The translations under genes were made by a program, and so were the position numbers. Source: a virus (taxonomy: Duplodnaviria; Heunggongvirae; Uroviricota; Caudoviricetes). From it: DNA of 64,000 nt. The notes under the pieces were generated by a model. That model did no database searches and had not been told where the DNA came from. It was given only the letters and a program-made list of their open reading frames with translations. Shown here one piece after another: positions 1 through 14,586 of this stretch (its first letter is position 1; each line of letters begins with the position of its first letter). The stretch spans positions 1 to 64,000 of IMG/VR virus record IMGVR_UViG_2617271072_000004. One strand, 5' to 3'.

Positions 1-159
1 CACAAACTGGATTGATACAACAGGTGGGATATTATCTTTTAGCCGGCTGATGTTTCTGGCTCAGTAATTCAACAGAGATCGGATAGCACTAACTCGGTGG
101 GGGGGAGAGAATCTCGCCCTCGTAATATTGCATTTAATTACATCGTAAGAGCGGCATAG
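1..159 (+). CDS. tail-fibre variable C-terminal cassette, 3' fragment at window edge; frame broken upstream
   Basis: 61-159 translates to SVIQQRSDSTNSVGGRESRPRNIAFNYIVRAA-stop, identical to the C-terminus of minus-strand ORF 2194-2625; upstream bases differ from that copy only by run lengths. Confidence 0.45.
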
Positions 160-181
160 AAAACGTTGGTTTAGGAGAAGG
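156..181. other. cix/hix-like invertase crossover site at 5' end of cassette B
   Basis: Reverse complement reads CCTTCTCCTAAACCAACGTTTTCTAT, resembling the AAACC-AA-GGTTT core of Hin/Gin/Cin sites. Confidence 0.55.
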
Positions 182-629
182 CTCGGCGCTGCCCGTTGGT
201 GTACCTGTTCCGTGGCCCTCAGCCACACCTCCAACGGGGTGGCTGAAATGCAATGGTGCAGCATTTTCTTCTGAAAAGTACCCAAATCTGGCAAAGGCTT
301 ATCCCACCAATAAATTACCGGATTTACGCGGTGAGTTTATCCGTGGTTGGGATGATGGGCGAGGTGTGGATGCGGGAAGGGTCATCTTAAGCATACAGGG
401 GTGGTTAACAGGAAGTCATTATCATAATATTCGGTCATGGGACGCGTGGGATAACACGGTATTGGTGCCAAATGACAGAGGGGGGGATAGTCTGTTGTCG
501 ACAGATAACGCCGTCCAAGAAGGAGCGATTAATGGTAAATTTACCAGTCAATACAGAACGGAGTTATCTGGGGGGAATGAAACCCGCCCACGTAACATTG
601 CCTTCAATTATATTGTGAGAGCAGCATAA
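162..629 (+). CDS. tail-fibre variable C-terminal cassette B; no own start codon, expressed only when fused to the constant part
   Basis: Begins NVGLGEGSALPVGVPVPWP...GWLKCNGAAFS...LPDLRGEFIRGWDDGRG, ends RPRNIAFNYIVRAA; ORF track shows its 3' part 366-629. Confidence 0.6.
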   Translation, partial: NVGLGEGSALPVGVPVPWPSATPPTGWLKCNGAAFSSEKYPNLAKAYPTNKLPDLRGEFIRGWDDGRGVDAGRVILSIQGWLTGSHYHNIRSWDAWDNTVLVPNDRGGDSLLSTDNAVQEGAINGKFTSQYRTELSGGNETRPRNIAFNYIVRAA

Positions 630-1240
630 TGGATAATGCGATATTAAATAGCGAACTTATAGCCATACAGGCAGGAAACATTATCGTTTATAACTATGAT
701 GGTGGTAATCGGGAATATATTTCTGCATCAACTGAATATCTTGCTGTTGGCGTTGGTATTCCGGCAAATTCTTGTTTGGATGCTCCAGGCTCACATAAAG
801 CAGGTTATGCGATTCTCCGTTCAGAGGATTTAAGTTCATGGGAGTATGTGCCAGATCATCGTGGCGAAACTGTCTATAGCATTGACACTGGGAATCCCGA
901 AGAAATCACGGTGTTGGGTGACTATCCGGAAAATACAACCACTATCGCCCCGCTAACACCATACGACAAATGGGATGGAGAGAAATGGGTGGTTGATACT
1001 GAGGCTCAACATAGTGCAGCTGTAGAGGCAGCAGAAACAAAACGTCAGTCATTGATTGATACTGCGATGGATTCCATTAGTCTGATTCAGTTGAAATTAC
1101 GGGCTGGACGGAAGTTGACGCAGGCAGAAACCACGCAGCTTAACTCCGTGCTAGATTATATAGACGAGCTGAACGCGATGGATTTAACCACGGCACCAGA
1201 TCTCAACTGGCCTGAAAAACAACTTTCTACAGCCAGTTGA
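629..1240 (+). CDS. tail fibre assembly chaperone (Tfa/U family)
   Basis: 203 aa; C-terminal LNSVLDYIDELNAMDLTTAPDLNWPEK is the hallmark of Tfa proteins; start overlaps cassette B stop (TAATG). Confidence 0.85.
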   Translation: MDNAILNSELIAIQAGNIIVYNYDGGNREYISASTEYLAVGVGIPANSCLDAPGSHKAGYAILRSEDLSSWEYVPDHRGETVYSIDTGNPEEITVLGDYPENTTTIAPLTPYDKWDGEKWVVDTEAQHSAAVEAAETKRQSLIDTAMDSISLIQLKLRAGRKLTQAETTQLNSVLDYIDELNAMDLTTAPDLNWPEKQLSTAS

Positions 1241-1245
1241 TATAA

Positions 1246-1743
1246 TTAATCCGCCCTCACAATATAATTAAATGCAATATTACGAGGGCGGGTTTCTAAG
1301 CCAGCAGTACCTAAATTAGCTACGGACTGTTTATATGTTTTAAAAGTTCCATAATTAGGGGCTGGCAATCCTGCATCGCTTGTGTTCCCCCATCTGATAA
1401 CTCCCGTATTACCACTAGTAGCCCATGCCTCGTCAAAGTAGAAATTAATTGAGCGGTCAGTTGCTACGGTTGATTTTGACGGTAATCCGTGAGCATGATC
1501 CTCCGTTGCATATCCTTGCTCGCTTAAAATAGAGCGACCAGAGTCAATCCCTCGCCCATCATCCCAACCACGGATAAACTCACCGCGTAAATCAGGTAAT
1601 TTTAACGTTGGATAAACCTTTGCCAGATTTGGGTACTTTTCAGAAGAAAATGCTGCACCATTGCATTTCAGCCAGCCCGTAGGTGGTGTTTCTAAGGGCC
1701 ACGGAACGGGCACGCCAACGGGCAATGCAGAGCCTTCCCCCAA
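1246..1743 (-). CDS. tail-fibre variable C-terminal cassette C
   Basis: Same conserved N-part and RPRNIAFNYIVRAD end, distinct middle. Confidence 0.6.
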   Translation of the reverse strand: MGEGSALPVGVPVPWPLETPPTGWLKCNGAAFSSEKYPNLAKVYPTLKLPDLRGEFIRGWDDGRGIDSGRSILSEQGYATEDHAHGLPSKSTVATDRSINFYFDEAWATSGNTGVIRWGNTSDAGLPAPNYGTFKTYKQSVANLGTAGLETRPRNIAFNYIVRAD

Positions 1744-1760
1744 ACCAACGTTTTTTATGC
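1734..1760. other. cix-like crossover site at 5' end of cassette C
   Basis: CCTTCCCCCAAACCAACGTTTTTTATGC. Confidence 0.55.
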
Positions 1761-2187
1761 CGCCCTTACGATGTAATTAAATGCGATATTTCGCGGCCTG
1801 ACAGCAACAAAATTTATACCATCACCTACAGAGTTACTGGTGAAATTAAATCGTGAAAATCCTGGCTGATTTCCGACGATGCCATCATGAAAATTAATTG
1901 CGTGCCCCGCACCATCGCCTATATTTCCGGCACGCTGAGAAAAGTTTGTAGCCTCTTGGCTGCTTAATAATGCTCGCCCATTGTCCACACCTCGTCCATC
2001 ATCCCAACCTCGAATAAATTCTCCCCGTAGATCCGGCAATTTATTGGTGGGGTAAACCTTTGCCAGATTTGGGTACTTTTCAGAAGAAAATGCTGCTCCG
2101 TTACATTTCAGCCACCCCGTTGGTGGTGTGGCGGAGGGCCATGGAACAGGTACACCAACGGGCAGCGCCGAGCCTTCCCCTAAACCA
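1755..2187 (-). CDS. tail-fibre variable C-terminal cassette D (apparent frameshift; ORF track shows only 1755-2039)
   Basis: 2040-2187 encodes the conserved NVGLGEGSALPVGVPVPWPSATPPTGWLKCNGAAFSSEKYPNLAKVYPTNK segment in another frame. Confidence 0.5.
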
Positions 2188-2199
2188 ACGTTTCTATGC
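2174..2199. other. cix-like crossover site at 5' end of cassette D
   Basis: CCTTCCCCTAAACCAACGTTTCTATGC. Confidence 0.55.
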
Positions 2200-2625
2200 C
2201 GCTCTTACGATGTAATTAAATGCAATATTACGAGGGCGAGATTCTCTCCCCCCCACCGAGTTAGTGCTATCCGATCTCTGTTGAATTACTGAGCCAGAAA
2301 CATCAGCGGCTAAAAGATAATATCCACCTGTTGTATCAAATCCAGTTTGTGCCCATGTTCTTTCGAAATAATGACTATGTGATTTAAATTCATCTGTTTG
2401 AGTTGATAATAACGCGCGCCCACTATCCACTCCACGCCCATCATCCCAACCACGGATAAACTCACCGCGTAAATCCGGCAATTTATTGGTGGGGTAAGCC
2501 CTTGCCAGATTTGGGTACATTTCAGAAGAAAATGCTGCGCCGTTACATTTCAGCCACCCTGCTGGCGGTGTGGCTGAGGGCCACGGAACAGGCACACCAA
2601 CGGGCAGCGCAGAGCCTTCCCCCAA
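2194..2625 (-). CDS. tail-fibre variable C-terminal cassette E
   Basis: 143 aa with conserved N-part and RPRNIAFNYIVRAA end; near-identical to fragment at 1-159. Confidence 0.6.
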   Translation of the reverse strand: MGEGSALPVGVPVPWPSATPPAGWLKCNGAAFSSEMYPNLARAYPTNKLPDLRGEFIRGWDDGRGVDSGRALLSTQTDEFKSHSHYFERTWAQTGFDTTGGYYLLAADVSGSVIQQRSDSTNSVGGRESRPRNIAFNYIVRAA

Positions 2626-2641
2626 ACCAACGTTTTAGTCT
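2616..2641. other. cix-like crossover site next to cin
   Basis: CCTTCCCCCAAACCAACGTTTTAGTC. Confidence 0.55.
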
Positions 2642-2696
2642 TAATCCCTACCTATACCAACGATGTATTTTTAACTAAACAAAGAGGTTGTTTTTC

Positions 2697-3269
2697 ATGC
2701 AAATTGGCTACATTCGTGTGTCAACAAATGACCAAAACACAGATTTACAAAGAAATGCACTGAACTGCGCAGGATGTGAACTGATTTTTGAAGATAAAAT
2801 AAGCGGAACAAAGTCAGCCAGACCAGGCTTGAAAAAGCTGCTCAGAACGTTATCAGAAGGAGATACGCTGGTTGTCTGGAAGCTGGATAGGCTTGGCAGA
2901 AGTATGAAACACCTTATCACGCTTATAGAGGAGTTGCGGGAAAAAGGTGTTAATTTCCGTAGTCTGACAGACAGTATTGACACATCAACACCCATGGGGC
3001 GTTTCTTTTTTCACGTCATGGGGGCTTTAGCAGAAATGGAACGTGAATTAATTGTTGAGAGAACACTGGCCGGACTGGCAGCTGCACGCGAACAGGGACG
3101 CATTGGCGGACGTCGCCCGAAGTTGACAAAAGAACAACATGAGCAAATAGCGAGGTTGATCGAAAATGGCTACAGCAGGAAACAGTTGGCAATTATTTAC
3201 GATATCGGTGTATCGACGATTTATCGTTATCATCCTGTAGAGAAGCGCCAAACTCAATCTGAGCTGTAA
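2697..3269 (+). CDS. cin: serine DNA invertase (Hin/Gin/Cin/Pin family)
   Basis: MQIGYIRVSTNDQNTDLQ with catalytic-serine motif and C-terminal HTH; AAAGAGG RBS before ATG 2697 (ORF track starts at upstream TTG 2688). Confidence 0.95.
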   Translation: MQIGYIRVSTNDQNTDLQRNALNCAGCELIFEDKISGTKSARPGLKKLLRTLSEGDTLVVWKLDRLGRSMKHLITLIEELREKGVNFRSLTDSIDTSTPMGRFFFHVMGALAEMERELIVERTLAGLAAAREQGRIGGRRPKLTKEQHEQIARLIENGYSRKQLAIIYDIGVSTIYRYHPVEKRQTQSEL

Positions 3270-3704
3270 TTCTAATGCCGCGTCGGTGTAATTTATCTTG
3301 ATAGAATAGGTACATTTATCGCGCGGCACATCAATTCGATGTATCTAGCGCCTGCTGACCGCTAATGAAAACTGTCCTCGAAATGTTGTCCCTAGTCCGA
3401 GACTAGGGTATCACCTCTGGAAAGCATACGCAGAACCTTTTTTAACCCAGGGTGCCCAGCCTTTTTGCTGCTCGCCTTATTCGCAAAAATTAGCTCACAT
3501 CCTGCGCTTTCAAGTGCTTTTCACTGCATAGCTGTGTTTTGTTCATTTGTCTATATGCGTACATAGCCTATTAGCATATTTTCTGCCCACTATCGTTATT
3601 TATTGCAAGCTACTGGTTTTAATTAACAAAACCAGTGTGTGTGGAAATCACAAAGTGCATACCGTTCTCAAATGTTGTTCAACTTACTGTTGTATAGGTA
3701 AAAA

Positions 3705-3968
3705 ATGACATTTTATGTACATATCGTGATGTTATCCCTTCTTGGTGGGGTGTATTCGTATTTGAGTGGGCTATGTGAAAACCGTTACGAGTCTTCATGC
3801 AAGAAATTGCTGGCCGAATGTATTTCCGCCGTACTTGCTGGCTTTATTGGCATGTATCTCGCGGAATATAAGGACATGAATGAAAGCCTTCAGAGCTGCA
3901 TGGTTCTTATTTTTAGCGCCAATAGCAGGCTTATTATTGAAGGTTCCAAAAGTCGGTTGAATAGGTAA
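3705..3968 (+). CDS. small hydrophobic protein, possible holin-like
   Basis: 87-aa ORF with hydrophobic segments upstream of lydA. Confidence 0.4.
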   Translation: MTFYVHIVMLSLLGGVYSYLSGLCENRYESSCKKLLAECISAVLAGFIGMYLAEYKDMNESLQSCMVLIFSANSRLIIEGSKSRLNR

Positions 3969-4042
3969 GTCTCTTATGCAACATAACCGGTTGAGAAGTT
4001 ACTTTGCATACCATTACCTCCTGACAACGTAGGAGGGAACTT

Positions 4043-4372
4043 GTGCTTGACACACAGGAATTAGCTCCAGTTGCTATTGCGCTCCTGCTTTCAGTAATTG
4101 GTGGGATAGGCACGTTCCTGATGGATGTCCGAGACGGTCGCCAGTCTGGCAATTTGTTGGGATTGGTTACGGAGATCTTTGTTGCAGTGACAGCTGGCGC
4201 GGTGGCGTACCTATTGGGGCAACATGAGGGCTGGGAGTTATCAATTACGTACTTAATGGTAACGATAGCCAGCAATAACGGTCATGAGGTGATTTCAGGG
4301 ATGAAACGAGTGAATATCGATAGCATTCTGAATGTTCTTACAAGTTTGGTGAAAAAGGGAGGTGGGAAATGA
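4043..4372 (+). CDS. lydA: holin
   Basis: 109 aa, hydrophobic; GTG start after AGGAGGG RBS; symbol assigned by P1 gene order. Confidence 0.55.
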   Translation: MLDTQELAPVAIALLLSVIGGIGTFLMDVRDGRQSGNLLGLVTEIFVAVTAGAVAYLLGQHEGWELSITYLMVTIASNNGHEVISGMKRVNIDSILNVLTSLVKKGGGK

Positions 4373-4812
4373 TTGGCTGGGGTGTATGCGTTCTTGCGTT
4401 AGCCTTAGCCGATCGCTATTTGCTAAAACGCAAGGACATCACGCATTTAGAACTTGGTGATGTGGAAATTAAACCGGGTTTCATCCGGGTGCCGTTCAAA
4501 TACCGGTCTAAATTCCCGTTTTTGCGCGGCGCAACGGTCAGATATTGGATCCGCGATGTTCAGAAGCCGACGACTGTGATTGAAGGCGAACAACGTTGTC
4601 TGACGTCGGCTGAACAGGGCGAAAACAGTGAATGGTTGTACATACCCACTGAATATATGGGTAAAGGAGAACGGCTGTGGCATTTCAACGTCATGGTTAC
4701 GCATGGCGACTCGTTCATTAACCCGTTGTATCGGATTTTCCCTGTTACTCAGCAAATCCGCAGAAGTTACGTAATAAATCTCGCACAGGATGTGTCAGAT
4801 GACGAAAAATAA
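4369..4812 (+). CDS. lydB: antiholin
   Basis: 147 aa, start overlaps lydA stop; symbol assigned by P1 gene order. Confidence 0.55.
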   Translation: MIGWGVCVLALALADRYLLKRKDITHLELGDVEIKPGFIRVPFKYRSKFPFLRGATVRYWIRDVQKPTTVIEGEQRCLTSAEQGENSEWLYIPTEYMGKGERLWHFNVMVTHGDSFINPLYRIFPVTQQIRRSYVINLAQDVSDDEK

Positions 4813-5401
4813 GTATGCAACGGTCGATTTTGACCAGGTTAATGAAAAGGGGCTGAAATCCCTTATCGCGGCGATCAATAAAACCGGTGTTACGGTAATT
4901 GAGGTTGACTCCAGCAACCGCGCAACAACGAAAGATGGCGTTAAAGTTAAAACCGCAAAGCTGGTTCTTAACGACGGACAAATTCTTGCCATACAGGTAA
5001 ACGATACTGGCGATATATCGTCTGTGAGGCTGAATGGAAAAGCTATTCCTAACGCTCAGTCGCCGGATATCAAGACGCTTGGTACCGTCATGGGGCAAGC
5101 GGCCCGCAAAAACTCCGCAAAATTCCAGAAATCACTGATCGCCAAAGCGAAACGTGTTGCCAATCCGGTAGACAAGAAACCGGCAGTAAAATCCAACTTT
5201 CAGCGCCTGCAAGAGGCAAAACAGCGGAATGCTCAGGTGGTTGCCGCTTATAAATCAGCGCAGAACTCGGTGTCTTTCAATCAACAGCAGATCACTGATT
5301 TGCGGGCGAAGCTGGATAAGGAGACAGGCCGACTCAATAACGAAAAGGCCCGAAATGGCGAACTCAAACGCCGTCTTAAGCAACTGAAAGCAGGAAATTA
5401 A
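4799..5401 (+). CDS. hdf: Hdf, homologue of a DarA fragment
   Basis: Contains ARKNSAKFQKSLIAKAKR, matching EKNSAKFQRAQKKKKA in DarA; directly upstream of darA. Confidence 0.7.
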   Translation: MTKNKYATVDFDQVNEKGLKSLIAAINKTGVTVIEVDSSNRATTKDGVKVKTAKLVLNDGQILAIQVNDTGDISSVRLNGKAIPNAQSPDIKTLGTVMGQAARKNSAKFQKSLIAKAKRVANPVDKKPAVKSNFQRLQEAKQRNAQVVAAYKSAQNSVSFNQQQITDLRAKLDKETGRLNNEKARNGELKRRLKQLKAGN

Positions 5402-5402
5402 C

Positions 5403-7322
5403 ATGGAACAGTTCAATATCAATAAAGGGGTGACGATCAAGCCTGGGCTTGACGTGCTTCCCCCGCCAGTGACTGATGATGAATATCGCGCATTAATGGC
5501 CGGTGAGGACCGCTATCTGATGACGGAATCCAACACCCTGGAGGAAATCGAGGCTACGTTCTTCTATGACACGCCGATCCACTGGTGTGCTACGGATTTA
5601 CTGGAGGCGATTAGTTCTACTCGTTTGCAGTTACACCGGACCATGCAGGCATTTGTCCGGGCATTAAACCAGAAGCTGAATGGTACCGGAATCTCTGCGG
5701 GGAGTGATAAAACGGGGGATGTGGCCCAGAACGGTGCACGCGCGATCGGCGGGGCTGAAATTGGCCGGGCACGTAACGTTAACGGGCTGCCGGTCCTGCC
5801 AGCCATTATTCCGCTCAGTGATGGTCAGACTATCAGCATTCTGTTTCATAGCCCGACAGCGGAAAACCGGATCACCAATAGCGATACGCTGATTGCTTTC
5901 CAGTTCTTACTGAATAAAAAAGACGTTACTCATACCGTTGCTCCGATGAGTGGACGTGATATGACGCTGGCGCAGGTCACCATGAAACTTGCCAACCTTG
6001 CAGAGAAAAACTCGGCAAAATTCCAGCGTGCGCAGAAGAAGAAAAAAGCCCTGGTTGATGAAATAACCCAACTACAGGCTGACAGTGACCAGAAAGAGGA
6101 TGCCATGAGCGACCTCGCGGATCAGGTGGCAGCGGTAGAAGGGCAGAAGGTAGATCTGGAGCAGAAAATTAACGCTGTTGCATCGGAAGCGGATTCTCTT
6201 TATGAAGAGAATGAGCGTTTGCAGACGGAGATTGATCAGCTCAATCGCACTGGTGGGCGCGAAACCATTGCTCCTGCGGGGATGACTGGTGGACACTCTC
6301 GCGCGATGACGGATCGCCTTGCAAGTATCAAAAATCGTATGCATATGAACGGGGAAGTGACGCTCAGTAATGGTGCATCAATGAAGCAATTCATTGAGGA
6401 CGGTGAAGGGTATATCCAGTTAACCGATTCGGATGGCAGCGTGTACATGATCAAGGCTAAATCCATACAGGGTGTGGACATGGCAGATGCGATCGGCAAG
6501 CTGTTTAAAGCCTATAAAGCGGGTAATGTATCGGAATACCTGGTCCAACCAGAAGAACATAAACCGGAAAACGTCGAACCTGAACCAGCGGAGGATACCG
6601 GTAGCTCTTCGCCTGAACCAGAAGTCTCTATAGGTGCATATCGATATGCCCTGCAAATGCGTCCGGCGGCCCCTGGCGCAATACCTGAAGGTAACAAAGC
6701 AATTCTGCCGCGCCCTGATGAAGGTGACCCGTATTATGAATATGCACGCTACGGCATTGCTACTTACGATACCCCGCTTTCTGATCAGCAAATGAGTGAG
6801 TACGACCTGAAGTTATTGCCTCGCGAGGATTCTTTCGACTTCCTGGCGAAGACACTTACTAATGGTCCGTTTGGCAAATATGCACAAAAAGCTCTGGAGC
6901 TGGCCACCAGCTCACCAGACGAGTTCCGCGTAATGCTGAAAACTCAGTTTCAAAAAACTTTCCCCAATATTGCGTTTCCTGGGGGCGCTGGCACCGAGAA
7001 AATGGTGCAGAGCATGATCAATGCATTGCAGGCCGAAGTCGGTGAGATTACTCAGCCAGAACCGGCCCCGGCACAGCCTGATGAAATGGTTAGCGAAGCA
7101 GATGCAGAGGCTAATAAAGCCATTGAATATCTCAATAACGTGATGGATATACAAAGCACTGACATGGCGGAGATCCGTAACGCCCGGGGCAATGTCCGGG
7201 AAGCGATTGCAGCCCTTCAGGCTGCCGGACGTTTTGAGGAAAACGAAGAGCTGGTTAACGGCGCAGCTCGCCACCTGGCTGATCTGCTGGTAGCAATCCA
7301 GAAAGCGGGGGTAGCGGCATGA
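5403..7322 (+). CDS. darA: virion-packaged antirestriction protein DarA
   Basis: 639 aa, the size of P1 DarA; synteny hdf-darA-ddrA-ddrB. Confidence 0.8.
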   Translation: MEQFNINKGVTIKPGLDVLPPPVTDDEYRALMAGEDRYLMTESNTLEEIEATFFYDTPIHWCATDLLEAISSTRLQLHRTMQAFVRALNQKLNGTGISAGSDKTGDVAQNGARAIGGAEIGRARNVNGLPVLPAIIPLSDGQTISILFHSPTAENRITNSDTLIAFQFLLNKKDVTHTVAPMSGRDMTLAQVTMKLANLAEKNSAKFQRAQKKKKALVDEITQLQADSDQKEDAMSDLADQVAAVEGQKVDLEQKINAVASEADSLYEENERLQTEIDQLNRTGGRETIAPAGMTGGHSRAMTDRLASIKNRMHMNGEVTLSNGASMKQFIEDGEGYIQLTDSDGSVYMIKAKSIQGVDMADAIGKLFKAYKAGNVSEYLVQPEEHKPENVEPEPAEDTGSSSPEPEVSIGAYRYALQMRPAAPGAIPEGNKAILPRPDEGDPYYEYARYGIATYDTPLSDQQMSEYDLKLLPREDSFDFLAKTLTNGPFGKYAQKALELATSSPDEFRVMLKTQFQKTFPNIAFPGGAGTEKMVQSMINALQAEVGEITQPEPAPAQPDEMVSEADAEANKAIEYLNNVMDIQSTDMAEIRNARGNVREAIAALQAAGRFEENEELVNGAARHLADLLVAIQKAGVAA

Positions 7323-7684
7323 CACTATCAGCTATTGAGTTAATGGATCTCAGCGATAAGTTGGATGCTCTGATGTCCAAAGCGGCAACCGCGAGTGGCA
7401 TGGAGTTGCTGGATATCAGCGATGAAATTGACCAGATCATGCAACAGATGGGGTACGGCGCGTCCGGCGGTGGTAGTGGCGAGGAAAAACAACCTTCGGA
7501 ACATGATGGTGTGCCAAAACTGGTTGCTGATTTCCTGGCTGATAAATTCGTCGATCAGAGCACAGATGCATTTATCGGTACCTTGCAGGACTTGAGTCAA
7601 TATGTTGGCACATACATCGACCTGGACCAGGTTAAACAGCACACGGCGGCATGGATAGCCGCCAACATTAAAGAGGCAGCATAA
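7319..7684 (+). CDS. ddrA: DdrA
   Basis: 121 aa, overlaps darA stop. Confidence 0.65.
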   Translation: MTLSAIELMDLSDKLDALMSKAATASGMELLDISDEIDQIMQQMGYGASGGGSGEEKQPSEHDGVPKLVADFLADKFVDQSTDAFIGTLQDLSQYVGTYIDLDQVKQHTAAWIAANIKEAA

Positions 7685-7696
7685 GGCGTAACAGGG

Positions 7697-10684
7697 ATGA
7701 GCTTAAGCGATCAGGTGGTAATGGCCACCAGCATAGAAACGCTGATCGAGCTGCTAAAGAACCTGCCCGATTATGGGCGGGTTTCGTATGTGGTGACAGC
7801 GAAGGGAGACGAGGTAAAAACAGCGTTTGATATCGTCGATGCCTCAGCTCTTTTGGTATCCAATACTCTGGATGGGAAAATTAATCCTGACTATCCCCAG
7901 GAACTTCAGCCGCGCGACCGGACCCGCGCATCCAGCCTTCTTCAGGTTAACCAGATATCCAAAGATTTGCGGCCTGCTCAGCTTACCGATTCCGGTTTAT
8001 CCAGCCATGGCGCGCCGATAATTGGTGAGGACAATGCCGTTGAGTCAGGTAATGGACGGACCATGGGGATCATCAAAGCCTATCAGGACGGCAATGCGGA
8101 TCGGTATCGTGAGTACCTGATTGAACATGCGACCGAATTCGGCATACCTCCTGAAAAGGTTGAATCAATGACGGCTCCGGTACTGGTGCGCCGCCGGTTA
8201 ACTAAGGTTGACCGCGTTCAGTTTGCCAAGGACTCAAATATTTCTGATCTTCAGGAAATGGCAGCCAGTGAAAAGGCTTTTGTTGATGCCGACAGCATAA
8301 CACCGGCGATGATGGCGCTGTTTAACCCGTCAGAAAGCGGAGATCTGCTTAGCCGCAGTAATGACGCTTTTATCCGCGGATTCATGACGCAAGTTGGTGC
8401 CACACAGGCTGCTGGCCTTGTAACGGAAGATGGGCGACCAACACGGCAACTTGTAGACCGTATACAAAACGCGATCTTTGCCAAGGCATATAAGGATGCG
8501 CGCCTGGTAAGGATGGTTGCAGAAGAACCTGATCCGGATATGCGTAATGTTCTGACGGCGCTTAATGCGGCGGCCAATGATTTTGTCCAGATGCAGGCTT
8601 TATCAGGTGAAGCGCACAAGCAGGCTGTGACAACTATTGTTGATGGTATTGAAACAGCGGATAGCCTCGATAAAAAGGCGCTGGCGGCATTGAAAGATGC
8701 GGTAGACCTGGTAAGGCAATCGAAGGAGTCAGGCCAGCATATTACCGATGTTATTGCTCAGGGGGATATGTTCAGCGAAACGGCCCCGGAAGTGAAAGCA
8801 CTCGCGTTGTTCATCGTCGCGAATAACCGTAGCGCGAAGCGTATGGCCACCGCCTTTAAGTTGATGGCTCAACGTATCAATGATGAGTTACAGCACCAGG
8901 GCCAGGCGCTGGGGGATATGTTTGGCGGCGGCGATGTGTCGTTACAGGATATCCTTCGCCAGGTGTCTCAGGAACTGGAAAACGAAGGCATGCAAGGGAT
9001 ATCCGGCGGTCTTTTCGAGTCCGTTTCCGGCGGTAGTTACAACGGTGTTGCTCCGTATACCAGTTTGCTATTACATCGGGCATCCGGCATCAAAGACATT
9101 ATTCATCTGATCAGGCTGCTTTCCCGCACAGATCCCCAGGATGAACAGCTTGTACAAGTGCTTGCGCATTTTGTTCGAATGCCTGTTGCCGACGTGAAAA
9201 AATGGTGTCGATTATTCGGTATCAGCAATTCGTTACTTCGCGGCTTGTTAAATCACGCATCCTCCCTTGGGCGCGATGGCTTTGACGAGATAGCGCAGGC
9301 GATAAAAAACGGAGATATGCCACCAGCTATTGACTGGTTTTCCATTCGCCCAACCAGGGTGAAAGCATTCCTTAGCGCGGCGCATTCGGCATCACCATTG
9401 GCAGAAATGGTTCAGAGGTTGTCGCTCATATTCACAGACCATACCGCGTTGGGTGATCTGACTCTGGACGAGATGAAAGACGCCTCCATTCAGTGGGCCG
9501 ATCAACAAAATGAGGTTAACTCAGACTTCTTGCCAGCATTCAGGAAGGCCGTTAGTAAAGCGGATGATGCCCGTGGAATTCTGAAGGCATTTAAGGCATT
9601 GCAAAGTCGTGTTAATAAACATGTCGGTGATATCGATGGGGTAACGGCGGAAGGCCGGGATATCCTTAAAGAGCACGGCATAACGCCAGAGTTTATTGAT
9701 GAGATCAGGACTGATATGCAGCGTGAGGTCGTATCGTCCCTGCAAATCGTAGCCAGAGCGTTGGCGGATGCTAATCCGAAGAGTGCGGCCATTGTTAACC
9801 GGGTTATTGGTGATATTGAAGCATCGGAGGGCATGGGGGCGCTGAAACTCTTCCTTTCGCGAGCGTTTAATCCTAACGGCAATATTCTCCCTGGCATTAT
9901 TGGTGAGGCTAAAAAGTATGTCAGTGAAGAAGAACTTGAGCAGCTTGACCAACTACTTAAGCGATTCTCATATAATCCGCAGACACGCTGGCAAATGAAT
10001 CAGCGAAGTATGGGTTCGGTCCACGAGAAAGTGTTATCTGCCATGAACAGTGCGATCGCAAACTCATCCGTATCTGAAGAAAAAGCTCTTGAGTGGGCCG
10101 ACTCTTTTATCACAGAAGAAGTGGAAGAAGCCCGCGCTGGACAGAATGGTGGGATAGACCTGCGCAAGGAACTTGCTGATATTTATCGCCTGACCGGCGG
10201 GAAAATATCGACCTTATCAAAGGTAGTTCACCACCAGGGAAGGGCATATGCAAATCTAAATGGTGTTGTTGCTGTCAATTTGAACGATGAAAATGCAAGT
10301 GCACTGTGGCACGAGCTGGGTCATCATCTTGAGTACAGTAACCCTGGTTTGTTAGAGAAAGCCCGGTCATTCCTGAAGGCCAATGTTGAAGGGGATAAGC
10401 CATCTTTCGTCAATATCGGTGGGCGTGGCAAGCCTGAATGGTGCTTCAGATCTCGATTGAGTAATATTTATATGGCGAAGGTATACCCGCCAGCCTCAGT
10501 AAGTAACACCGGGAAAATTCGGCAGAAATCACCGACTATTTCCAAAACGTCAGCAACGGAAGTATTCTCTATGGCTCTTCAGTTGTATCATGACAAAGAG
10601 GCCGCTGCCGCATCACTGATGAATGGTGACGGATTGCTGGAACTGTTATTAGGTGTGGCAAAGGAGCTAAATAATGCAGATTAA
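7697..10684 (+). CDS. ddrB: DdrB, large dar-operon protein
   Basis: 995-aa ORF in P1 dar operon position. Confidence 0.7.
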   Translation: MSLSDQVVMATSIETLIELLKNLPDYGRVSYVVTAKGDEVKTAFDIVDASALLVSNTLDGKINPDYPQELQPRDRTRASSLLQVNQISKDLRPAQLTDSGLSSHGAPIIGEDNAVESGNGRTMGIIKAYQDGNADRYREYLIEHATEFGIPPEKVESMTAPVLVRRRLTKVDRVQFAKDSNISDLQEMAASEKAFVDADSITPAMMALFNPSESGDLLSRSNDAFIRGFMTQVGATQAAGLVTEDGRPTRQLVDRIQNAIFAKAYKDARLVRMVAEEPDPDMRNVLTALNAAANDFVQMQALSGEAHKQAVTTIVDGIETADSLDKKALAALKDAVDLVRQSKESGQHITDVIAQGDMFSETAPEVKALALFIVANNRSAKRMATAFKLMAQRINDELQHQGQALGDMFGGGDVSLQDILRQVSQELENEGMQGISGGLFESVSGGSYNGVAPYTSLLLHRASGIKDIIHLIRLLSRTDPQDEQLVQVLAHFVRMPVADVKKWCRLFGISNSLLRGLLNHASSLGRDGFDEIAQAIKNGDMPPAIDWFSIRPTRVKAFLSAAHSASPLAEMVQRLSLIFTDHTALGDLTLDEMKDASIQWADQQNEVNSDFLPAFRKAVSKADDARGILKAFKALQSRVNKHVGDIDGVTAEGRDILKEHGITPEFIDEIRTDMQREVVSSLQIVARALADANPKSAAIVNRVIGDIEASEGMGALKLFLSRAFNPNGNILPGIIGEAKKYVSEEELEQLDQLLKRFSYNPQTRWQMNQRSMGSVHEKVLSAMNSAIANSSVSEEKALEWADSFITEEVEEARAGQNGGIDLRKELADIYRLTGGKISTLSKVVHHQGRAYANLNGVVAVNLNDENASALWHELGHHLEYSNPGLLEKARSFLKANVEGDKPSFVNIGGRGKPEWCFRSRLSNIYMAKVYPPASVSNTGKIRQKSPTISKTSATEVFSMALQLYHDKEAAAASLMNGDGLLELLLGVAKELNNAD

Positions 10685-10982
10685 AATCGCAGCGCCATTA
10701 GGTGGAGATGCCATTATCGAATTTGATGATAATGAAGAAGTTTCCGGGCGTTTAAGCATTATCTCCGGAGACATTACCGAGGACATGATCGCTGAAGCCA
10801 TAGCTGGAGCAAATCCCAATAGCTATATGGGATTCGTTAACACCCTTGATGCTCCCGCAAGTGATGTTCTCCGAACGCTGCATCTTTACGCTGGCTGGTT
10901 TGTTGATTGGCCAGCAGTAGATGGTGGCGATGAGGACGACGACGATGATTTGGGTGATCATGTGGATCAGTTTGTATATTAG
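10674..10982 (+). CDS. hxr: Hxr-like acidic small protein
   Basis: 102 aa with acidic tail DGGDEDDDDD; position after ddrB. Confidence 0.55.
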   Translation: MQIKIAAPLGGDAIIEFDDNEEVSGRLSIISGDITEDMIAEAIAGANPNSYMGFVNTLDAPASDVLRTLHLYAGWFVDWPAVDGGDEDDDDDLGDHVDQFVY

Positions 10983-11188
10983 ATACTAACAGATCGTCTA
11001 TGTGGCTAGAATCGTTCGAGTTTAGCGATTAACGGAAGTTCTGGTCGATTATGATTAGTGCATATTCATGCACAGGCACACAAAATCTGGAGATATTGAT
11101 CAGCGTTTATGTATAGTTTGTAATATAAAAATCGCCTTGAACGGAGTTTGTGCGTTATGAGAATCAATCTTAACTCTGGAGTAAGATA

Positions 11189-11557
11189 GTGGACGCTTTG
11201 TCTGAGGTTTTCGTTAATAATTGGCTTCCTGGTATCTGCACATTTTTTTTTAGGGATCTTTTATTCTAATATTGTTGAAAAAAAGAAACTTAAACAGAAG
11301 TTAAAGAATGATATTCTTGAGATATTCATTCCTGTATTTAACCCCGGAAATGAAATCTCCATTGAAATTGCTGAGAATGCTTACAGGAATATGAATGGTA
11401 CGTTTCAGTTGTACAAGAGAATATATCCAGGTATGTTCAACAAAGAAGCAGAGCGTGAGCTAGACCGACTACTAAAAGACGGTTTCCTCATAAATGGAGA
11501 GGTTAATAAGCATTACTTTGAACCAACTAATATTGAGAGCCTGATTAAAAGATTATA
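11189..11557 (+). CDS. small membrane-anchored protein, frame interrupted at a T9 run
   Basis: Removing one T from 11242-11250 joins a GTG-started hydrophobic N-terminus to the 55-codon ORF 11390-11557. Confidence 0.3.
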
Positions 11558-11576
11558 ACTCATTTACCACAGTTAA

Positions 11577-11600
11577 AACCCCGCTTCATTGCGGGGTTTG
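11577..11600. terminator. hairpin terminator between convergent genes
   Basis: CCCCGC-TTCATT-GCGGGG flanked by A-run and T-run. Confidence 0.5.
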
Positions 11601-11764
11601 CATCATGCGCCAATAAAAGCTATTTATTCTGCGTCAAGTTGTAACATCTAATCCACTATTATATATCGTTATGTTTGGCATATAACAGATAATTAAATGA
11701 ATTATATCCAGATCTAATTTTATGCGGTTCTGGAACCCGGCTACGTACTATATAATAGAAAAAA

Positions 11765-13220
11765 TCAGAGTCTATCAAAAATAGAGCCTTTTCTCGGTAC
11801 AAATATTTTCTCATACAGTCGAGTAGCGTAATCATCTGTCATGCCTGAAACATAGTCGCAAATGACGCGCATTTTTTTATCATCACCTTTTGCTTCCTCT
11901 TGATTATATTTCTTTCGAGTTTCTGTCGGGAGAAAACGTATTGGGTCATTTGCCAGTACATTGAATAGTTCCACAATCAGTTTCTGACCTTTGAACTCTA
12001 ATAGTTGGACGTTTTCGTGCTGAATAACTTTGTTCCTAACCAGCTCAAAAATGGCTTTACGTAACTCTTCTACCGCGGCAGGAAGTGCCACTTTATAGCG
12101 TAAAAATTTTACTTTTGAAATCAGAGTTCTGCACTTCAAGCTTAACGCTAGTGATCATCAGATGAACAAGTGTCCCTATGCACTCCTTGCGTAGATAACT
12201 TTCGCCGAACAGTTTTTCAGCTACATCATCGGCTTTTAGATTAAACGAGTCGCATTGGCAAGCTGCAAATAAATGGGATTTGTCCTCGAAGTGCTCCTCC
12301 CACATTTTTTTGTCGATCATCTTCAGAGAAATTGCGTCTTCAAGATCATGGAGTGAGTAGGATATCTCATCAGCCAAGTCCATAATCGTTGTATCCAGTG
12401 CTTTATATATTGTTTCCTTGTGCTTATTCAACGCGGTAGTTTTTACCGTTTTGAATAACTTAACATCATCACTATCAAAAGGTTGGAGTGCGAATCTAAC
12501 AGTGTTCTCCTCAGAGTCCAGGTAACATTTCGGGGGCTTAAATTCGGATGATTTAAACAACCACTCATTGCTTCTTGGCTGTAACTGGCTGTAAGCCCTC
12601 TCATTGACGACCTCTGAATAGCTTGCTGGATATTTCAGTACGCCTAAAATAAGTCTACGGGTGGGATCCAGCCCATTGGTTTCGGTGTACTTATCCAGTT
12701 TGGAGAGTATACGCAGTGTCTGCCCGTTACCTTCAAAGCCGCCATAGGATCTCATGCAGTAGTTTAGTGCGACCTCACCACCATGACCGAAGGGGGGATG
12801 TCCTATATCATGAGCAAGGCAGATAGCCTGCATCAGGCTTGGGTCAGGTAAGAATTTACCCCCCTCATCTGTATCGCGCTTAGACAACTGAGACAAGATA
12901 CCGCCGCCAATTTGCGCTACTTCCATAGAGTGAGTTAGCCGCGTACGGTAGAAATCGCTTTCGCCCAATCCCAACACCTGCGTCTTCGATTGTAATCTCC
13001 TAAAAGCGGAAGAGTGGATTAACCGGGAAAGATCACGTTCATACTCCGACCTTATCTCATTCGGGCGGGTGGTATTGTACCCTTGACGCTCATACCAAGT
13101 ATTTTCTTTGCAGTGTGTCATACGTGTTCCTTTGGGCAGGATAGAGCAAGTCGCCTGCTTAATTGCTGAAGAAAGAAATACAAATTTGTAACGCTGTGGA
13201 TCTTCTTTATGCGTCCACAA
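11765..13220 (-). CDS. Dgt-family dGTP triphosphohydrolase (HD domain), apparent frameshift near 12101-12116
   Basis: RRLQSKTQV, RTRLTHSMEVAQ, HDIGHPPFGHGGE, FEGNGQ and C-terminal DYVSGMTDDYA motifs; ORFs 12093-13220 and 11765-12139 overlap in different frames. Confidence 0.85.
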
Positions 13221-13301
13221 TCAGTAAATATTGGATACTTGCAAGGTGCGCGAAACACTAAAGATTGTCAATTAATAATTAACACCTCTTATAGTTACTA
13301 G

Positions 13302-13330
13302 AAATAAAAATCCCCTGTATTAACAGGGGC
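13302..13330 (-). terminator. rho-independent terminator after ssb
   Basis: On minus strand CCCCTG-loop-CAGGGG followed by TTTTTATTT. Confidence 0.6.
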
Positions 13331-13369
13331 CTGTGTATGAACTATTTACAAATAACTCACAAGTTAACT

Positions 13370-13858
13370 CTAAAACGGAATATCGTCGTCAAAGTCCATT
13401 GGAGGTTCGTTATTGGCGCTGCTCTGAGGTTTGCCGCCACCGCTGTATTGCTGGTGGTTTTGAGATTGGTTTGATTGCCCCCAGCCATTTGAGGACTGTG
13501 AATCGTCGCGGCGGGCGCCGATCATTTGCATAGTTCCGCCCTGGCTGACGATAATTTCCGTCGTGTAACGTTCTACACCGGCGTCATCTGTCCACTTACG
13601 GGTTTTAAGTTTCCCTTCGATGTAGACCTGAGAACCTTTTCGTAAATACTCACTCGCAATTTCAGCAAGTTTCCCGAACAAAACGACTCTATGCCATTCT
13701 GTTTGCTCTTTCTGTTGGCCCGTTTGCTTGTCGCGCCATGATTCATTCGTTGCGATGCTGAGTCTTCCGACCGCTCCGCCATTTGGTATATACCTGATCT
13801 CCGGGTCTTGCCCCAGGGTACCAATCAGGATGACTTTGTTTACACCGCGTTGTGCCAC
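13370..13858 (-). CDS. ssb: single-stranded DNA-binding protein
   Basis: [20 protein letters not shown]... OB-fold N-terminus, Gly/Gln-rich linker, DDIPF tail. Confidence 0.95.
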
Positions 13859-13877
13859 TTATCTTACCTAATAAAAT

Positions 13878-13894
13878 AAATTAATTAGAGCAAT
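13878..13894 (-). promoter_or_regulatory. C1 operator-like 17-mer
   Basis: Reverse complement ATTGCTCTAATTAATTT vs P1 consensus ATTGCTCTAATAAATTT. Confidence 0.55.
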
Positions 13895-14028
13895 AATGTA
13901 TATCTTTGAAACGTAGCTAACAAGTGATTTGCATTATCCTGTGCCTTCTAAAGGGATCGAGTCAGTCGGTATTGGCTGTGAATGGGTGTTTGTCCTGGAG
14001 CGTAAAAAAATTCGCTTATGAGGTCTTT

Positions 14029-14586
14029 ATGAAGGGAAAAACAGCCGCAGGAGGCGGTGCAATTTGCGCTATCGCGGTGATGATTACCATCGTGATGGGT
14101 AATGGCAATGTGCGAACCAACCAGGCGGGGCTTGAGCTGATTGGTAACGCTGAAGGTTGCCGACGTGATCCATACATGTGCCCGGCGGGGGTATGGACTG
14201 ACGGGATCGGTAATACACACGGGGTAACGCCGGGTGTGCGAAAAACCGACCAGCAAATCGCCGCTGATTGGGAAAAGAATATCCTGATCGCTGAACGCTG
14301 TATTAATCAGCACTTCCGGGGCAAAGACATGCCCGATAATGCCTTCAGTGCAATGACAAGCGCGGCATTCAATATGGGATGCAATAGCTTACGGACCTAC
14401 TACAGCAAAGCGCGAGGCATGCGAGTAGAAACGTCCATCCACAAGTGGGCGCAGAAAGGGGAATGGGTGAATATGTGTAACCATCTCCCTGATTTCGTGA
14501 ACAGTAACGGCGTGCCCCTGCGAGGTTTAAAGATTCGCCGTGAAAAAGAACGCCAGCTTTGCCTGACGGGGCTTGTCAATGAATAA
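14029..14586 (+). CDS. lyz: SAR endolysin (lysozyme)
   Basis: MKGKTAAGGGAICAIAVMITIVMGNG signal-anchor-release N-terminus followed by lysozyme fold; 185 aa from ATG 14029. Confidence 0.9.
   Translation: MKGKTAAGGGAICAIAVMITIVMGNGNVRTNQAGLELIGNAEGCRRDPYMCPAGVWTDGIGNTHGVTPGVRKTDQQIAADWEKNILIAERCINQHFRGKDMPDNAFSAMTSAAFNMGCNSLRTYYSKARGMRVETSIHKWAQKGEWVNMCNHLPDFVNSNGVPLRGLKIRREKERQLCLTGLVNE

What the first reader, a model, noticed from the sequence alone, without database searches (positions are those of the whole stretch)
1..3269. Multi-cassette invertible tail-fibre segment with at least four crossover sites and one invertase
At least five alternative tail-fibre C-terminal cassettes, on both strands, share a conserved start (NVGLGEGSALPVGVPVPWP...GWLKCNGAAFS...LPDLRGEFIRGWDDGRG), a variable middle and an identical RPRNIAFNYIVRA(A/D) end. 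Each is preceded by a CCTTC..AAACCAACGTTT site resembling Hin/Gin/Cin sites, and cin lies next to the array. This is more complex than the two-state P1 C segment and resembles the Min/shufflon type. Only one Tfa chaperone gene is visible for five cassettes, and cassettes C, D and E directly abut each other.
Basis: partly seen in the sequence, partly recalled or inferred. Interest (0 to 1): 0.7.

Follow-up and report, generated by a model that had tools for sequence, protein, structure and literature searches.

The report
p15B-type Min tail-fibre shuffling array
This is the right-hand part of the already described "Min" multiple DNA-inversion system of P1-like plasmid prophages, which swaps alternative tips onto one tail-fibre gene to change host range. 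It is real but not new.

Summary
Window 1-3269 carries four complete tail-fibre tip cassettes, one on the + strand and three on the - strand, plus a truncated fifth at the window edge. It also carries one tfa chaperone gene, four 26-bp crossover sites and a serine invertase. The sites occur nowhere else in the 64 kb.

The system is the Min inversion system first described on plasmid p15B. The site next to the invertase matches the published p15B site mixMI''L' at 26 of 26 bases. The invertase and Tfa proteins are exact matches to existing UniRef entries (Q05517_ECOLX, TFAB_ECOLX). The flanking backbone is 95.7% identical to phage P1. The invertase is closer to Pin of e14 (81% identical) than to Cin (74%), and it faces the opposite way to P1 cin. 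A decayed 177-nt cin stub lies downstream.

Eleven related P1-like plasmids carry the same cassette families in different orders and orientations. Their breakpoints fall exactly at the site centre, as Min-mediated inversion predicts. The single tfa sits in a fixed A-tfa-B unit that must flip with every inversion.

The fifth cassette is a frameshifted inverted copy of cassette D, and it may be an assembly artefact. The constant part of the tail-fibre gene lies outside the window.

Verdict: already known, low interest.

The parts
1..159 (+). Truncated cassette D' (3' end plus TAG stop at 157-159). It is an inverted near-copy of the 3' end of cassette D, carrying three homopolymer indels and an in-frame stop.
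   Evidence: inverted repeats I4, I7 and I10 are each 100% complementary but offset by 1 nt; direct reading of the sequence.
154..179 (+). mix-type crossover site for cassette A: GCATAGAAAACG TT GGTTTAGGAGAA.
   Evidence: The 12-2-12 layout and AA/TT core match the Din-family sites listed in PMC3241671.
162..629 (+). Tail-fibre tip cassette A (155 codons plus stop).
   Evidence: Pfam Collar domain at residues 13-60; similarity to solved short and long tail-fibre tip structures.
629..1240 (+). tfa, the only tail-fibre assembly chaperone gene (203 aa).
   Evidence: Caudo_TAP, E 3e-30; exact sequence match to UniRef TFAB_ECOLX.
1246..1752 (-). Tail-fibre tip cassette B (168 codons, ends RAD). Together with A and tfa it forms the fixed pivot unit.
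   Evidence: The A-tfa-B unit is constant in relatives.
1735..1760 (-). mix-type crossover site for cassette B: TTCCCCCAAACC AA CGTTTTTTATGC on the + strand.
   Evidence: It matches the p15B mix sites except for one extra T in the T run.
1755..2192 (-). Tail-fibre tip cassette C (145 codons).
2175..2200 (-). mix-type crossover site for cassette C: TTCCCCTAAACC AA CGTTTCTATGCC.
   Evidence: It matches p15B mixMr''N' at 25/26.
2194..2634 (-). Tail-fibre tip cassette D (146 codons).
   Evidence: The protein is identical to the cassette next to the invertase in pSA186_4.
2617..2642 (-). Fixed boundary crossover site next to the invertase: TTCCCCCAAACC AA CGTTTTAGTCTT.
   Evidence: It matches p15B mixMI''L' at 26/26. 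The same outer flank appears in every relative, joined to a different cassette in different records.
2697..3269 (+). min-type serine DNA invertase (190 aa), with its 5' end facing the array.
   Evidence: Resolvase + HTH_7; 81.0% identical to PinE, 74.2% to Cin, 100% to WP_001165547; exact match to Q05517_ECOLX.
2714..2785 (+). Candidate recombinational enhancer inside the 5' coding region of the invertase.
   Evidence: 58/72 identical to the enhancer annotated in P1 cin. Function not tested.
3401..3577 (-). Decayed 5' stub of a P1-type cin gene, marking the right edge of the module that replaced cin and the C segment.
   Evidence: P1 homology at 95.7% starts at window 3401, inside cin; 158/177 identical to P1 cin, with two in-frame stops.

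Best explanation
Window 1-3269 is the invertase-proximal part of a p15B-type Min multiple-inversion module carried by a P1-like plasmid prophage.

**Layout.** The late tail-fibre gene S has a constant 5' part, which lies to the left of the window and ends in a 26-bp mix site. Each alternative 3' cassette starts with the same half-site. Each cassette encodes a collar domain, a variable receptor-binding tip and a conserved 14-residue end.

**Mechanism.** The Min serine invertase pairs two mix sites in opposite orientation, cuts at the central AA/TT dinucleotide and inverts the DNA between them. This probably needs Fis and an enhancer inside the 5' end of its own gene. The cassette that ends up directly after the constant part is translated as the fibre tip, and the rest stay silent. 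A clonal population therefore makes virions with several different host specificities.

**A consequence of the half-site arrangement.** The array must always read: constant part, then + cassettes, then the A-tfa-B unit, then - cassettes, then the fixed boundary site, then min. Every inversion includes the A-tfa-B unit and therefore flips tfa.

**Shown here:** the parts, the identity of the sites to p15B mix sites, an intact invertase, and permuted arrangements among relatives with breakpoints at the site centre.

**Inferred:** that inversion is going on in this particular element, that it depends on Fis and an enhancer, that the cassettes differ in host range, and that one Tfa serves all cassettes through their shared ends.
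For: - **Sites:** there are four 26-bp sites and none elsewhere in the 64 kb. The boundary site matches p15B mixMI''L' at 26/26 and site C matches mixMr''N' at 25/26, and all fit the Din-family 12-2-12 consensus with an AA core.
- **Invertase:** it is an intact Resolvase + HTH_7 protein carrying the conserved N-terminal YIRVSTNDQ motif. It is 100% identical to the recombinase in L001, L002, L006, L008, L009, L011 and L012.
- **Database matches:** the invertase and Tfa sequences exactly match UniRef Q05517_ECOLX and TFAB_ECOLX.
- **Backbone:** it is 95.7% identical to P1 from inside cin onward. The coordinates of p15B homology noted in the P1 record fit the window with a constant offset.
- **Isomers among relatives:**
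  - The constant part is fused to cassette A, C, E, F, G, I or K in different records.
  - The boundary site carries C, D, E, F, I, L or B.
  - All 11 plasmid relatives obey the predicted order.
  - The A-tfa-B unit occurs in both orientations.
- **Literature:**
  - PMC5786510 reports a similar 5-kb segment 99% identical to p15B min.
  - PMC6906374 reports Min-type invertases in reverse orientation in P1-like plasmids.
  - PMC6109161 summarises Min as a serine-invertase system that generates variable tail fibres.
Against: - **No direct evidence of inversion here:** no reads or population data exist for this element.
- **Truncated array:** the constant part of S and its junction site are outside the window.
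- **Enhancer untested:** its similarity (58/72) lies in coding sequence and may only reflect protein conservation.
- **tfa expression unexplained:** in isomers with tfa inverted relative to S, no P1-type late promoter was found that could express it.
- **Site length differences:** sites A and B each have one extra base in a homopolymer run compared with relatives. If real, this shifts the outer part of one half-site.
- **Original papers unavailable:** the p15B papers could not be read, so some details of p15B rest on secondary sources and memory.
Confidence: 0.9

Rival explanations
1. The array is a frozen relic. The cassettes and sites are inherited from a Min-type ancestor, but this element no longer inverts, for example because min is not expressed or because its sites are impaired by length changes.
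For: - Sites A and B carry an extra base in a homopolymer run.
- D' is frameshifted.
- No promoter for min was recognised by the simple scan.
Against: - The invertase is full length and identical to the protein in seven relatives that show different arrangements.
- The boundary site is 26/26 identical to a working p15B site.
- The core and the conserved half of every site are intact.
Confidence: 0.06
2. The rearrangements seen among relatives are produced mainly by general homologous recombination between the roughly 230-bp conserved 5' regions of oppositely oriented cassettes, not by the invertase.
For: - The conserved 5' regions are 81-92% identical inverted and direct repeats.
- Within a cassette family the conserved part is more divergent (94.0%) than the variable body (98.8%).
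- Haplotype blocks in the conserved part are shared across families, so exchange inside the conserved part does happen.
Against: - The three kinds of left flank (constant part, cassette end, boundary) always change partner exactly at the AA/TT core.
- The sites are those shown experimentally to be Min crossover points, according to PMC3241671 and the papers it cites.
- Homologous exchange explains the mosaicism but not the precise junctions.
Confidence: 0.04
3. This rival concerns only the fifth cassette. The inverted duplicate D' at 1-159 is not a real extra cassette. It is an assembly or polishing artefact caused by a mixed population of isomers.
For: - All three differences between D' and D are single-base homopolymer length changes within 60 nt.
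- Two further homopolymer differences sit in sites A and B.
- Large ORFs elsewhere in the window are intact.
- No record in the E. coli collection has the D-then-A junction.
Against: - At least one complete relative, pMTY9975_untypable1, has 17 cassettes with the same family repeated on both sides of the pivot.
- Duplicated cassettes in both orientations can therefore be real.
Confidence: 0.4

Closest known systems
Min multiple DNA-inversion system of plasmid p15B (E. coli 15T-; Sandmeier, Iida, Arber 1990-1992; GenBank X62121)
   Same: - **Sites:** they are the same, with 26/26 and 25/26 matches to published mix sites.
- **Proteins:** the invertase and Tfa sequences match database entries exactly.
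- **Gene order:** the order is S constant part, cassettes, tfa, cassettes, min, lyd genes.
- **Backbone:** it is P1-related, with the same cin stub.
- **Isomer count:** the architecture rule gives 4! x 5 x 2 = 240 isomers for six sites, matching the number I remember for p15B.
   Different: - **Arrangement:** the isomer differs. Here two - cassettes lie between the pivot and the boundary, whereas the X62121 site coordinates imply four.
- **Cassette D:** it is rare among relatives and appears twice here.
- **Array size:** relatives carry 5 to 17 cassettes rather than six.
- **Cassette set:** whether p15B has the same set could not be checked, because X62121 is not in the collections.
Pin / P segment of the defective prophage e14 (E. 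coli K-12)
   Same: - **Invertase:** it is 81% identical and in the same orientation relative to the invertible DNA.
- **Site:** pixR has the same CGTTT half-site type.
- **DNA similarity:** the A-tfa-B unit is about 79-82% identical to stfE-tfaE.
   Different: e14 has two sites and a simple two-state switch. This array has four sites in view and more outside the window.
Cin / C segment of phage P1 (also Gin of Mu)
   Same: - **Invertase family and site layout:** it belongs to the same Din family of serine invertases, with the same 12-2-12 site layout and AA/TT core.
- **Role:** the system has the same genomic position and swaps the 3' end of tail-fibre gene S.
   Different: - **States and chaperones:** P1 has two sites and two states, and each Sv has its own U chaperone.
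- **Orientation of cin:** P1 cin points into the segment and overlaps cixL.
- **This window:** it has multiple sites, one tfa, an invertase only 74% identical and facing away from the array, and only a dead stub of cin.
R64 shufflon (Rci) and the Rin system of bifidobacterial prophages
   Same: These also have multiple inversion sites that shuffle alternative 3' ends onto one constant gene.
   Different: Those systems use tyrosine recombinases. This one uses a serine invertase.

Membership tests
Min system (p15B type) | Din-subfamily serine invertase (resolvase catalytic domain plus C-terminal HTH), Min/Pin-like | tested here: met
   Resolvase E 2e-51 and HTH_7 E 3e-15. 81.0% identical to PinE and 74.2% to Cin. 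Exact match to UniRef Q05517_ECOLX. That this entry is p15B Min itself is from memory and was not verified.
Min system (p15B type) | 26-bp mix crossover sites (12-2-12, AA core) matching the published p15B sites | tested here: met
   Site 2617-2642 matches mixMI''L' at 26/26. Site 2175-2200 matches mixMr''N' at 25/26. The other two sites differ by one extra base in a homopolymer run and by one or two substitutions.
Min system (p15B type) | More than two sites, in both orientations, each heading an alternative 3' tail-fibre segment | tested here: met
   There is one site on the + strand and three on the - strand, each followed by an open cassette.
Min system (p15B type) | A constant 5' tail-fibre gene part ending in a mix site (mixQ''R' type) | tested here: inconclusive
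   It is not in the window. It is present with the expected sequence TTCTTGATTACC TT GGTTT in all relatives examined.
Min system (p15B type) | Segments actually invert, giving many isomers | not testable with these tools
   There is indirect support only. Eleven related plasmids show different permutations with junctions at the site core.
Min system (p15B type) | P1-related plasmid-prophage backbone in which the Min module replaces the C segment and most of cin | tested here: met
   Window 3401-8226 is 95.7% identical to P1, and the homology starts inside cin. The cin stub has stop codons.
Din invertase family in general (Hin/Gin/Cin/Pin) | Fis-dependent recombinational enhancer in cis | tested here: inconclusive
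   Window 2714-2785 is 58/72 identical to the enhancer annotated in P1. One Fis-like 15-mer is shared at the same position in min, cin and pin. Binding was not tested.
P1 Cin C-segment | Two cix sites, two alternative Sv-U pairs, and cin overlapping cixL | tested here: not met
   The window has four sites, a single tfa and an invertase in the opposite orientation only 74% identical to Cin.
R64-type shufflon | Tyrosine recombinase (Rci) acting on sfx sites | tested here: not met
   The recombinase is a serine resolvase/invertase.

The most novel reading that the evidence does not exclude
In this lineage the Min array may not be a fixed six-cassette set. It may be an expanding and contracting array.

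- **Cassette duplication:** cassettes appear duplicated here (D on both sides of the pivot), and a relative carries up to 17 cassettes.
- **Exchange within the conserved region:** homologous exchange inside the conserved 230-bp 5' regions reshuffles collar haplotypes between cassette families.
- **Combined effect:** tip diversity would then come from site-specific inversion, unequal recombination and gene conversion acting together.
- **Consequence for tfa:** tfa flips with every inversion, so about half of all isomers would lack S-linked tfa transcription. That would imply either a trans or promoter-independent supply of the chaperone, or tips that do not need Tfa.
Probability: 0.3. Interest if true: 0.35.

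Novelty: already known. Interest (0 to 1): 0.15.

Why it matters
The Min system is a textbook example of programmed host-range variation in a temperate phage, so finding it here adds no new biology. It does have some practical value:

- **Identification:** it marks the window as a p15B/P1-like plasmid prophage.
- **Annotation:** it explains why annotation pipelines list many orphan "phage tail protein" ORFs in such plasmids.
- **Assembly caution:** assemblies of this region may be one isomer, or a blend of several.
- **Spread:** matches occur in hundreds of sequenced E. coli plasmids (211 PLSDB records) and in P2-like chromosomal prophages. This matters for predicting the host range of phage-plasmids that carry resistance genes.

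Tried and rejected
- **Original p15B papers:** PMC329034, PMC53420 and PMC206102, and the P1 genome paper PMC523184, are not held. The p15B site sequences were taken from PMC3241671 instead.
- **NCBIfam:** it gave no family for the cassettes or for tfa, and only sub-threshold hits for the invertase.
- **Promoter and terminator scan:** the sigma-70 and terminator scan of 1-3800 found fewer promoter-like sites than shuffles did, so it is uninformative.
- **P1 late promoters:** a search for late promoters like LPs or LPdar found only LPdar at 3996 and none in the array. How tfa is expressed when inverted therefore remains open.
- **Relic cin promoter as a leftward driver:** I considered whether it could drive transcription leftward into the array. 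Its -10 element has lost the final T (TAAAAC), so I did not pursue the idea.
- **tfa orientation count:** among relatives tfa is co-oriented with S in 9 and inverted in 2. I rejected this as a statistic, because hits were ranked by collinearity with the query.
- **Source record and D'-A junction:** a search found no record with that junction.
- **First pattern for the constant-part site:** AAACGTTGGTTT missed it, because that site's left half differs. Searching on the conserved right half corrected this.
Full report
**What is in the sequence**

Reading window 1-4500 and listing its ORFs gives this order on the + strand:

| Coordinates | Strand | Feature |
|---|---|---|
| 1-159 | + | Truncated cassette end, D' |
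| 154-179 | + | Crossover site |
| 162-629 | + | Cassette A |
| 629-1240 | + | tfa |
| 1246-1752 | - | Cassette B |
| 1755-2192 | - | Cassette C |
| 2194-2634 | - | Cassette D |
| 2697-3269 | + | Serine recombinase gene |

B, C and D each have a site at their 5' end, at 1735-1760, 2175-2200 and 2617-2642.

The four complete cassettes are invariant over most of their first 79 residues. They have unrelated middles of about 60-85 residues, and they share the last 13 residues RPRNIAFNYIVRA. Each has a Pfam phage tail collar domain at residues 13-60. Cassette A also resembles solved short and long tail-fibre tips such as T4 gp12 and gp37.

The site motif is far above chance. AAACCAACGTTT occurs 4 times against 0.43 expected. 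GGTTTRGGRGAAGG occurs 4 times against 0.06 expected. All occurrences lie in this region and none elsewhere in the 64 kb.

The repeat finder confirms the 212-275-nt conserved 5' blocks as direct and inverted repeats that are 81-92% alike.

**Corrections to the observation**

The fifth cassette is only 157 nt cut by the window edge. It is an inverted copy of the 3' end of cassette D that is otherwise identical but carries three single-base homopolymer length changes (repeats I4, I7 and I10). These changes put a stop codon in its frame.

The constant part of the tail-fibre gene and its junction site are absent from the window. The array is therefore cut at the left.

**What it is**

The recombinase has a resolvase catalytic domain and an HTH_7 domain. 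It is 81.0% identical to PinE of prophage e14 and 74.2% identical to P1 Cin. It is 100% identical to WP_001165547, the recombinase annotated in many related plasmids. Its exact sequence is UniRef entry Q05517_ECOLX, and the Tfa sequence is exactly TFAB_ECOLX.

PMC3241671 tabulates the 26-bp sites of the Din invertase family, including the six mix sites of plasmid p15B.
- The window site next to the invertase, TTCCCCCAAACC AA CGTTTTAGTCTT, matches mixMI''L' at 26/26.
- The site of cassette C matches mixMr''N' at 25/26.
- The junction of the constant part in relatives, TTCTTGATTACC TT GGTTT, is the reverse complement of a mixQ''R'-type site.

From window 3401 onward the DNA is 95.7% identical to phage P1 in reverse orientation, through lydC, lydA, lydB, hdf, darA, ddrA and ddrB. 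That homology begins inside cin. Window 3401-3577 is a 177-nt stub of the 5' end of cin, 158/177 identical, with two in-frame stops.

By contrast, the live invertase gene is only 69.8% identical in DNA to P1 cin. The invertase together with the adjoining cassette DNA (window 2416-3137) is 75.7% identical to e14, and the A-tfa-B block is about 79-82% identical.

The p15B homology coordinates written into the P1 record fit the window with one constant offset. This is the picture I remember from Sandmeier et al. 1992, in which a Pin-like multi-site module replaced the C segment and most of cin in a P1-like genome. The papers themselves could not be read here.

Secondary sources agree:
- PMC5786510 describes a 5-kb segment in a P7-like plasmid that is 99% identical to p15B min.
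- PMC6906374 notes Min-type invertases in reverse orientation in P1-like plasmids.
- PMC6109161 summarises Min as a serine-invertase "shufflon" for tail fibres.

**Evidence that it inverts**

No reads are available, so I compared records. Matches occur in 211 PLSDB plasmids, mostly E. coli plasmids of about 95 kb typed as non-mobilizable. Matches also occur in 1572 of 5426 complete E. coli genomes, most of them partial.

I annotated sites and cassette families in 11 plasmid relatives and one chromosomal P2-like prophage. The same 13 or so cassette families recur in different orders and orientations.
- The constant part is fused to A, C, E, F, G, I or K in different records.
- The fixed boundary flank next to min carries B, C, D, E, F, I or L.
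- The three kinds of left flank change partner exactly at the central TT/AA.

**A structural rule**

Each ordinary cassette carries the good half-site at its 5' end and supplies the poor half-site for the next site from its own 3' end and stop codon. The A-tfa-B unit has good half-sites at both ends.

The array can therefore only read: constant part, + cassettes, A-tfa-B in either orientation, - cassettes, boundary, min. All 11 plasmid relatives and the window obey this order.

Every pair of inverted sites brackets the pivot, so tfa flips with each inversion. For six sites the rule gives 4! x 5 x 2 = 240 arrangements. That equals the number I remember being reported for p15B.

**The single Tfa**

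One tfa per array is the norm in every plasmid relative, so it is not an anomaly of this window. The shared collar domain and the identical C-terminal 13 residues are plausible common handles for one chaperone. This is inference.

What stays unexplained is how tfa is expressed when it points against S, as in L005 and L013. The P1 late promoter LPdar is conserved at 3996, but no late promoter of that type lies in the array.

**Rivals**

- A frozen relic is unlikely, given the intact invertase and sites shared with relatives that differ in arrangement.
- General homologous recombination clearly contributes to mosaicism. Within a family the conserved 5' part is 94.0% identical, against 98.8% for the variable body, and haplotype blocks are shared between families. 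It does not explain the junctions at the core.
- The D' duplicate may be an assembly artefact, because all its differences are homopolymer lengths and no record shows a D-then-A junction. However, pMTY9975_untypable1 has 17 cassettes with families repeated on both sides of the pivot, so real duplication is possible.

**Verdict**

It is a rediscovery of a system characterised in 1990-1992 that is now seen in hundreds of sequenced plasmids. Novelty: already known. Interest: low.

Noticed in passing
window 3401-3577 (-): This is a dead 177-nt stub of the 5' end of P1-type cin. It is 158/177 identical to P1 and has two in-frame stops, one of them in the codon just before the catalytic serine. It still carries the stretch annotated in P1 as the Cin enhancer. 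It marks the edge of the module replacement.
   Followed up: yes
window 1-159 versus 2191-2350; sites at 154-179 and 1735-1760: Five single-base homopolymer length differences cluster in the array. Three lie in the inverted duplicate D' and one in each of sites A and B (an extra A/T). Large ORFs elsewhere in the window are intact. This could be local mis-polishing of a mixed-isomer population, or it could be real decay.
   Followed up: partly
Cassette 5' regions in the window (168-375, 1540-1746, 1980-2186, 2422-2628) and in L001-L013: Within a cassette family the conserved 5' 207 nt are less alike across records (94.0%) than the variable bodies (98.8%). Blocks such as PLETPP or SSEMYPKLAKAYPTN turn up on different families. 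This points to gene conversion or homologous exchange between cassettes.
   Followed up: partly
L009 (NZ_CP135665.1, pMTY9975_untypable1) 3713-14468: This array has 17 cassettes, with family F present four times, M three times, and E, G and I twice each, on both sides of the pivot. Array size among relatives ranges from 5 to 17, against six sites in p15B.
   Followed up: partly
L010 (NZ_CM149577.1 chromosome) 5447-10241: The same module (tail-fibre gene, + cassettes, tfa, - cassettes, related 199-aa recombinase) sits in a P2-like chromosomal prophage. The module therefore moves between unrelated phage backbones.
   Followed up: no
L001 2066-5080, L002 4056-6467, L005 2734-4215: The constant part of tail-fibre protein S varies greatly in length between relatives. 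The fused S protein is 493, 803 or 1004 aa. The cause is a different copy number of a repeat of roughly 70 residues (…KGIVQLSS.TNSTSE.LAATPKAVKAAYDLA…), so fibre shaft length probably varies too.
   Followed up: no
L012 (NZ_AP040955.1) 4693-6944: An IS21-family element (ISEc10, istA and istB) is inserted inside the cassette array of this relative.
   Followed up: no
window 3996-4014 (+): The P1 late promoter LPdar is conserved exactly (19/19) upstream of lydA. No comparable late promoter lies in the array, which leaves the expression of tfa in the inverted state unexplained.
   Followed up: partly
window 62557-62632 (-): This is a single tRNA-Met (CAT) gene. It is the only tRNA and the only Rfam hit in the 64-kb window.
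   Followed up: no
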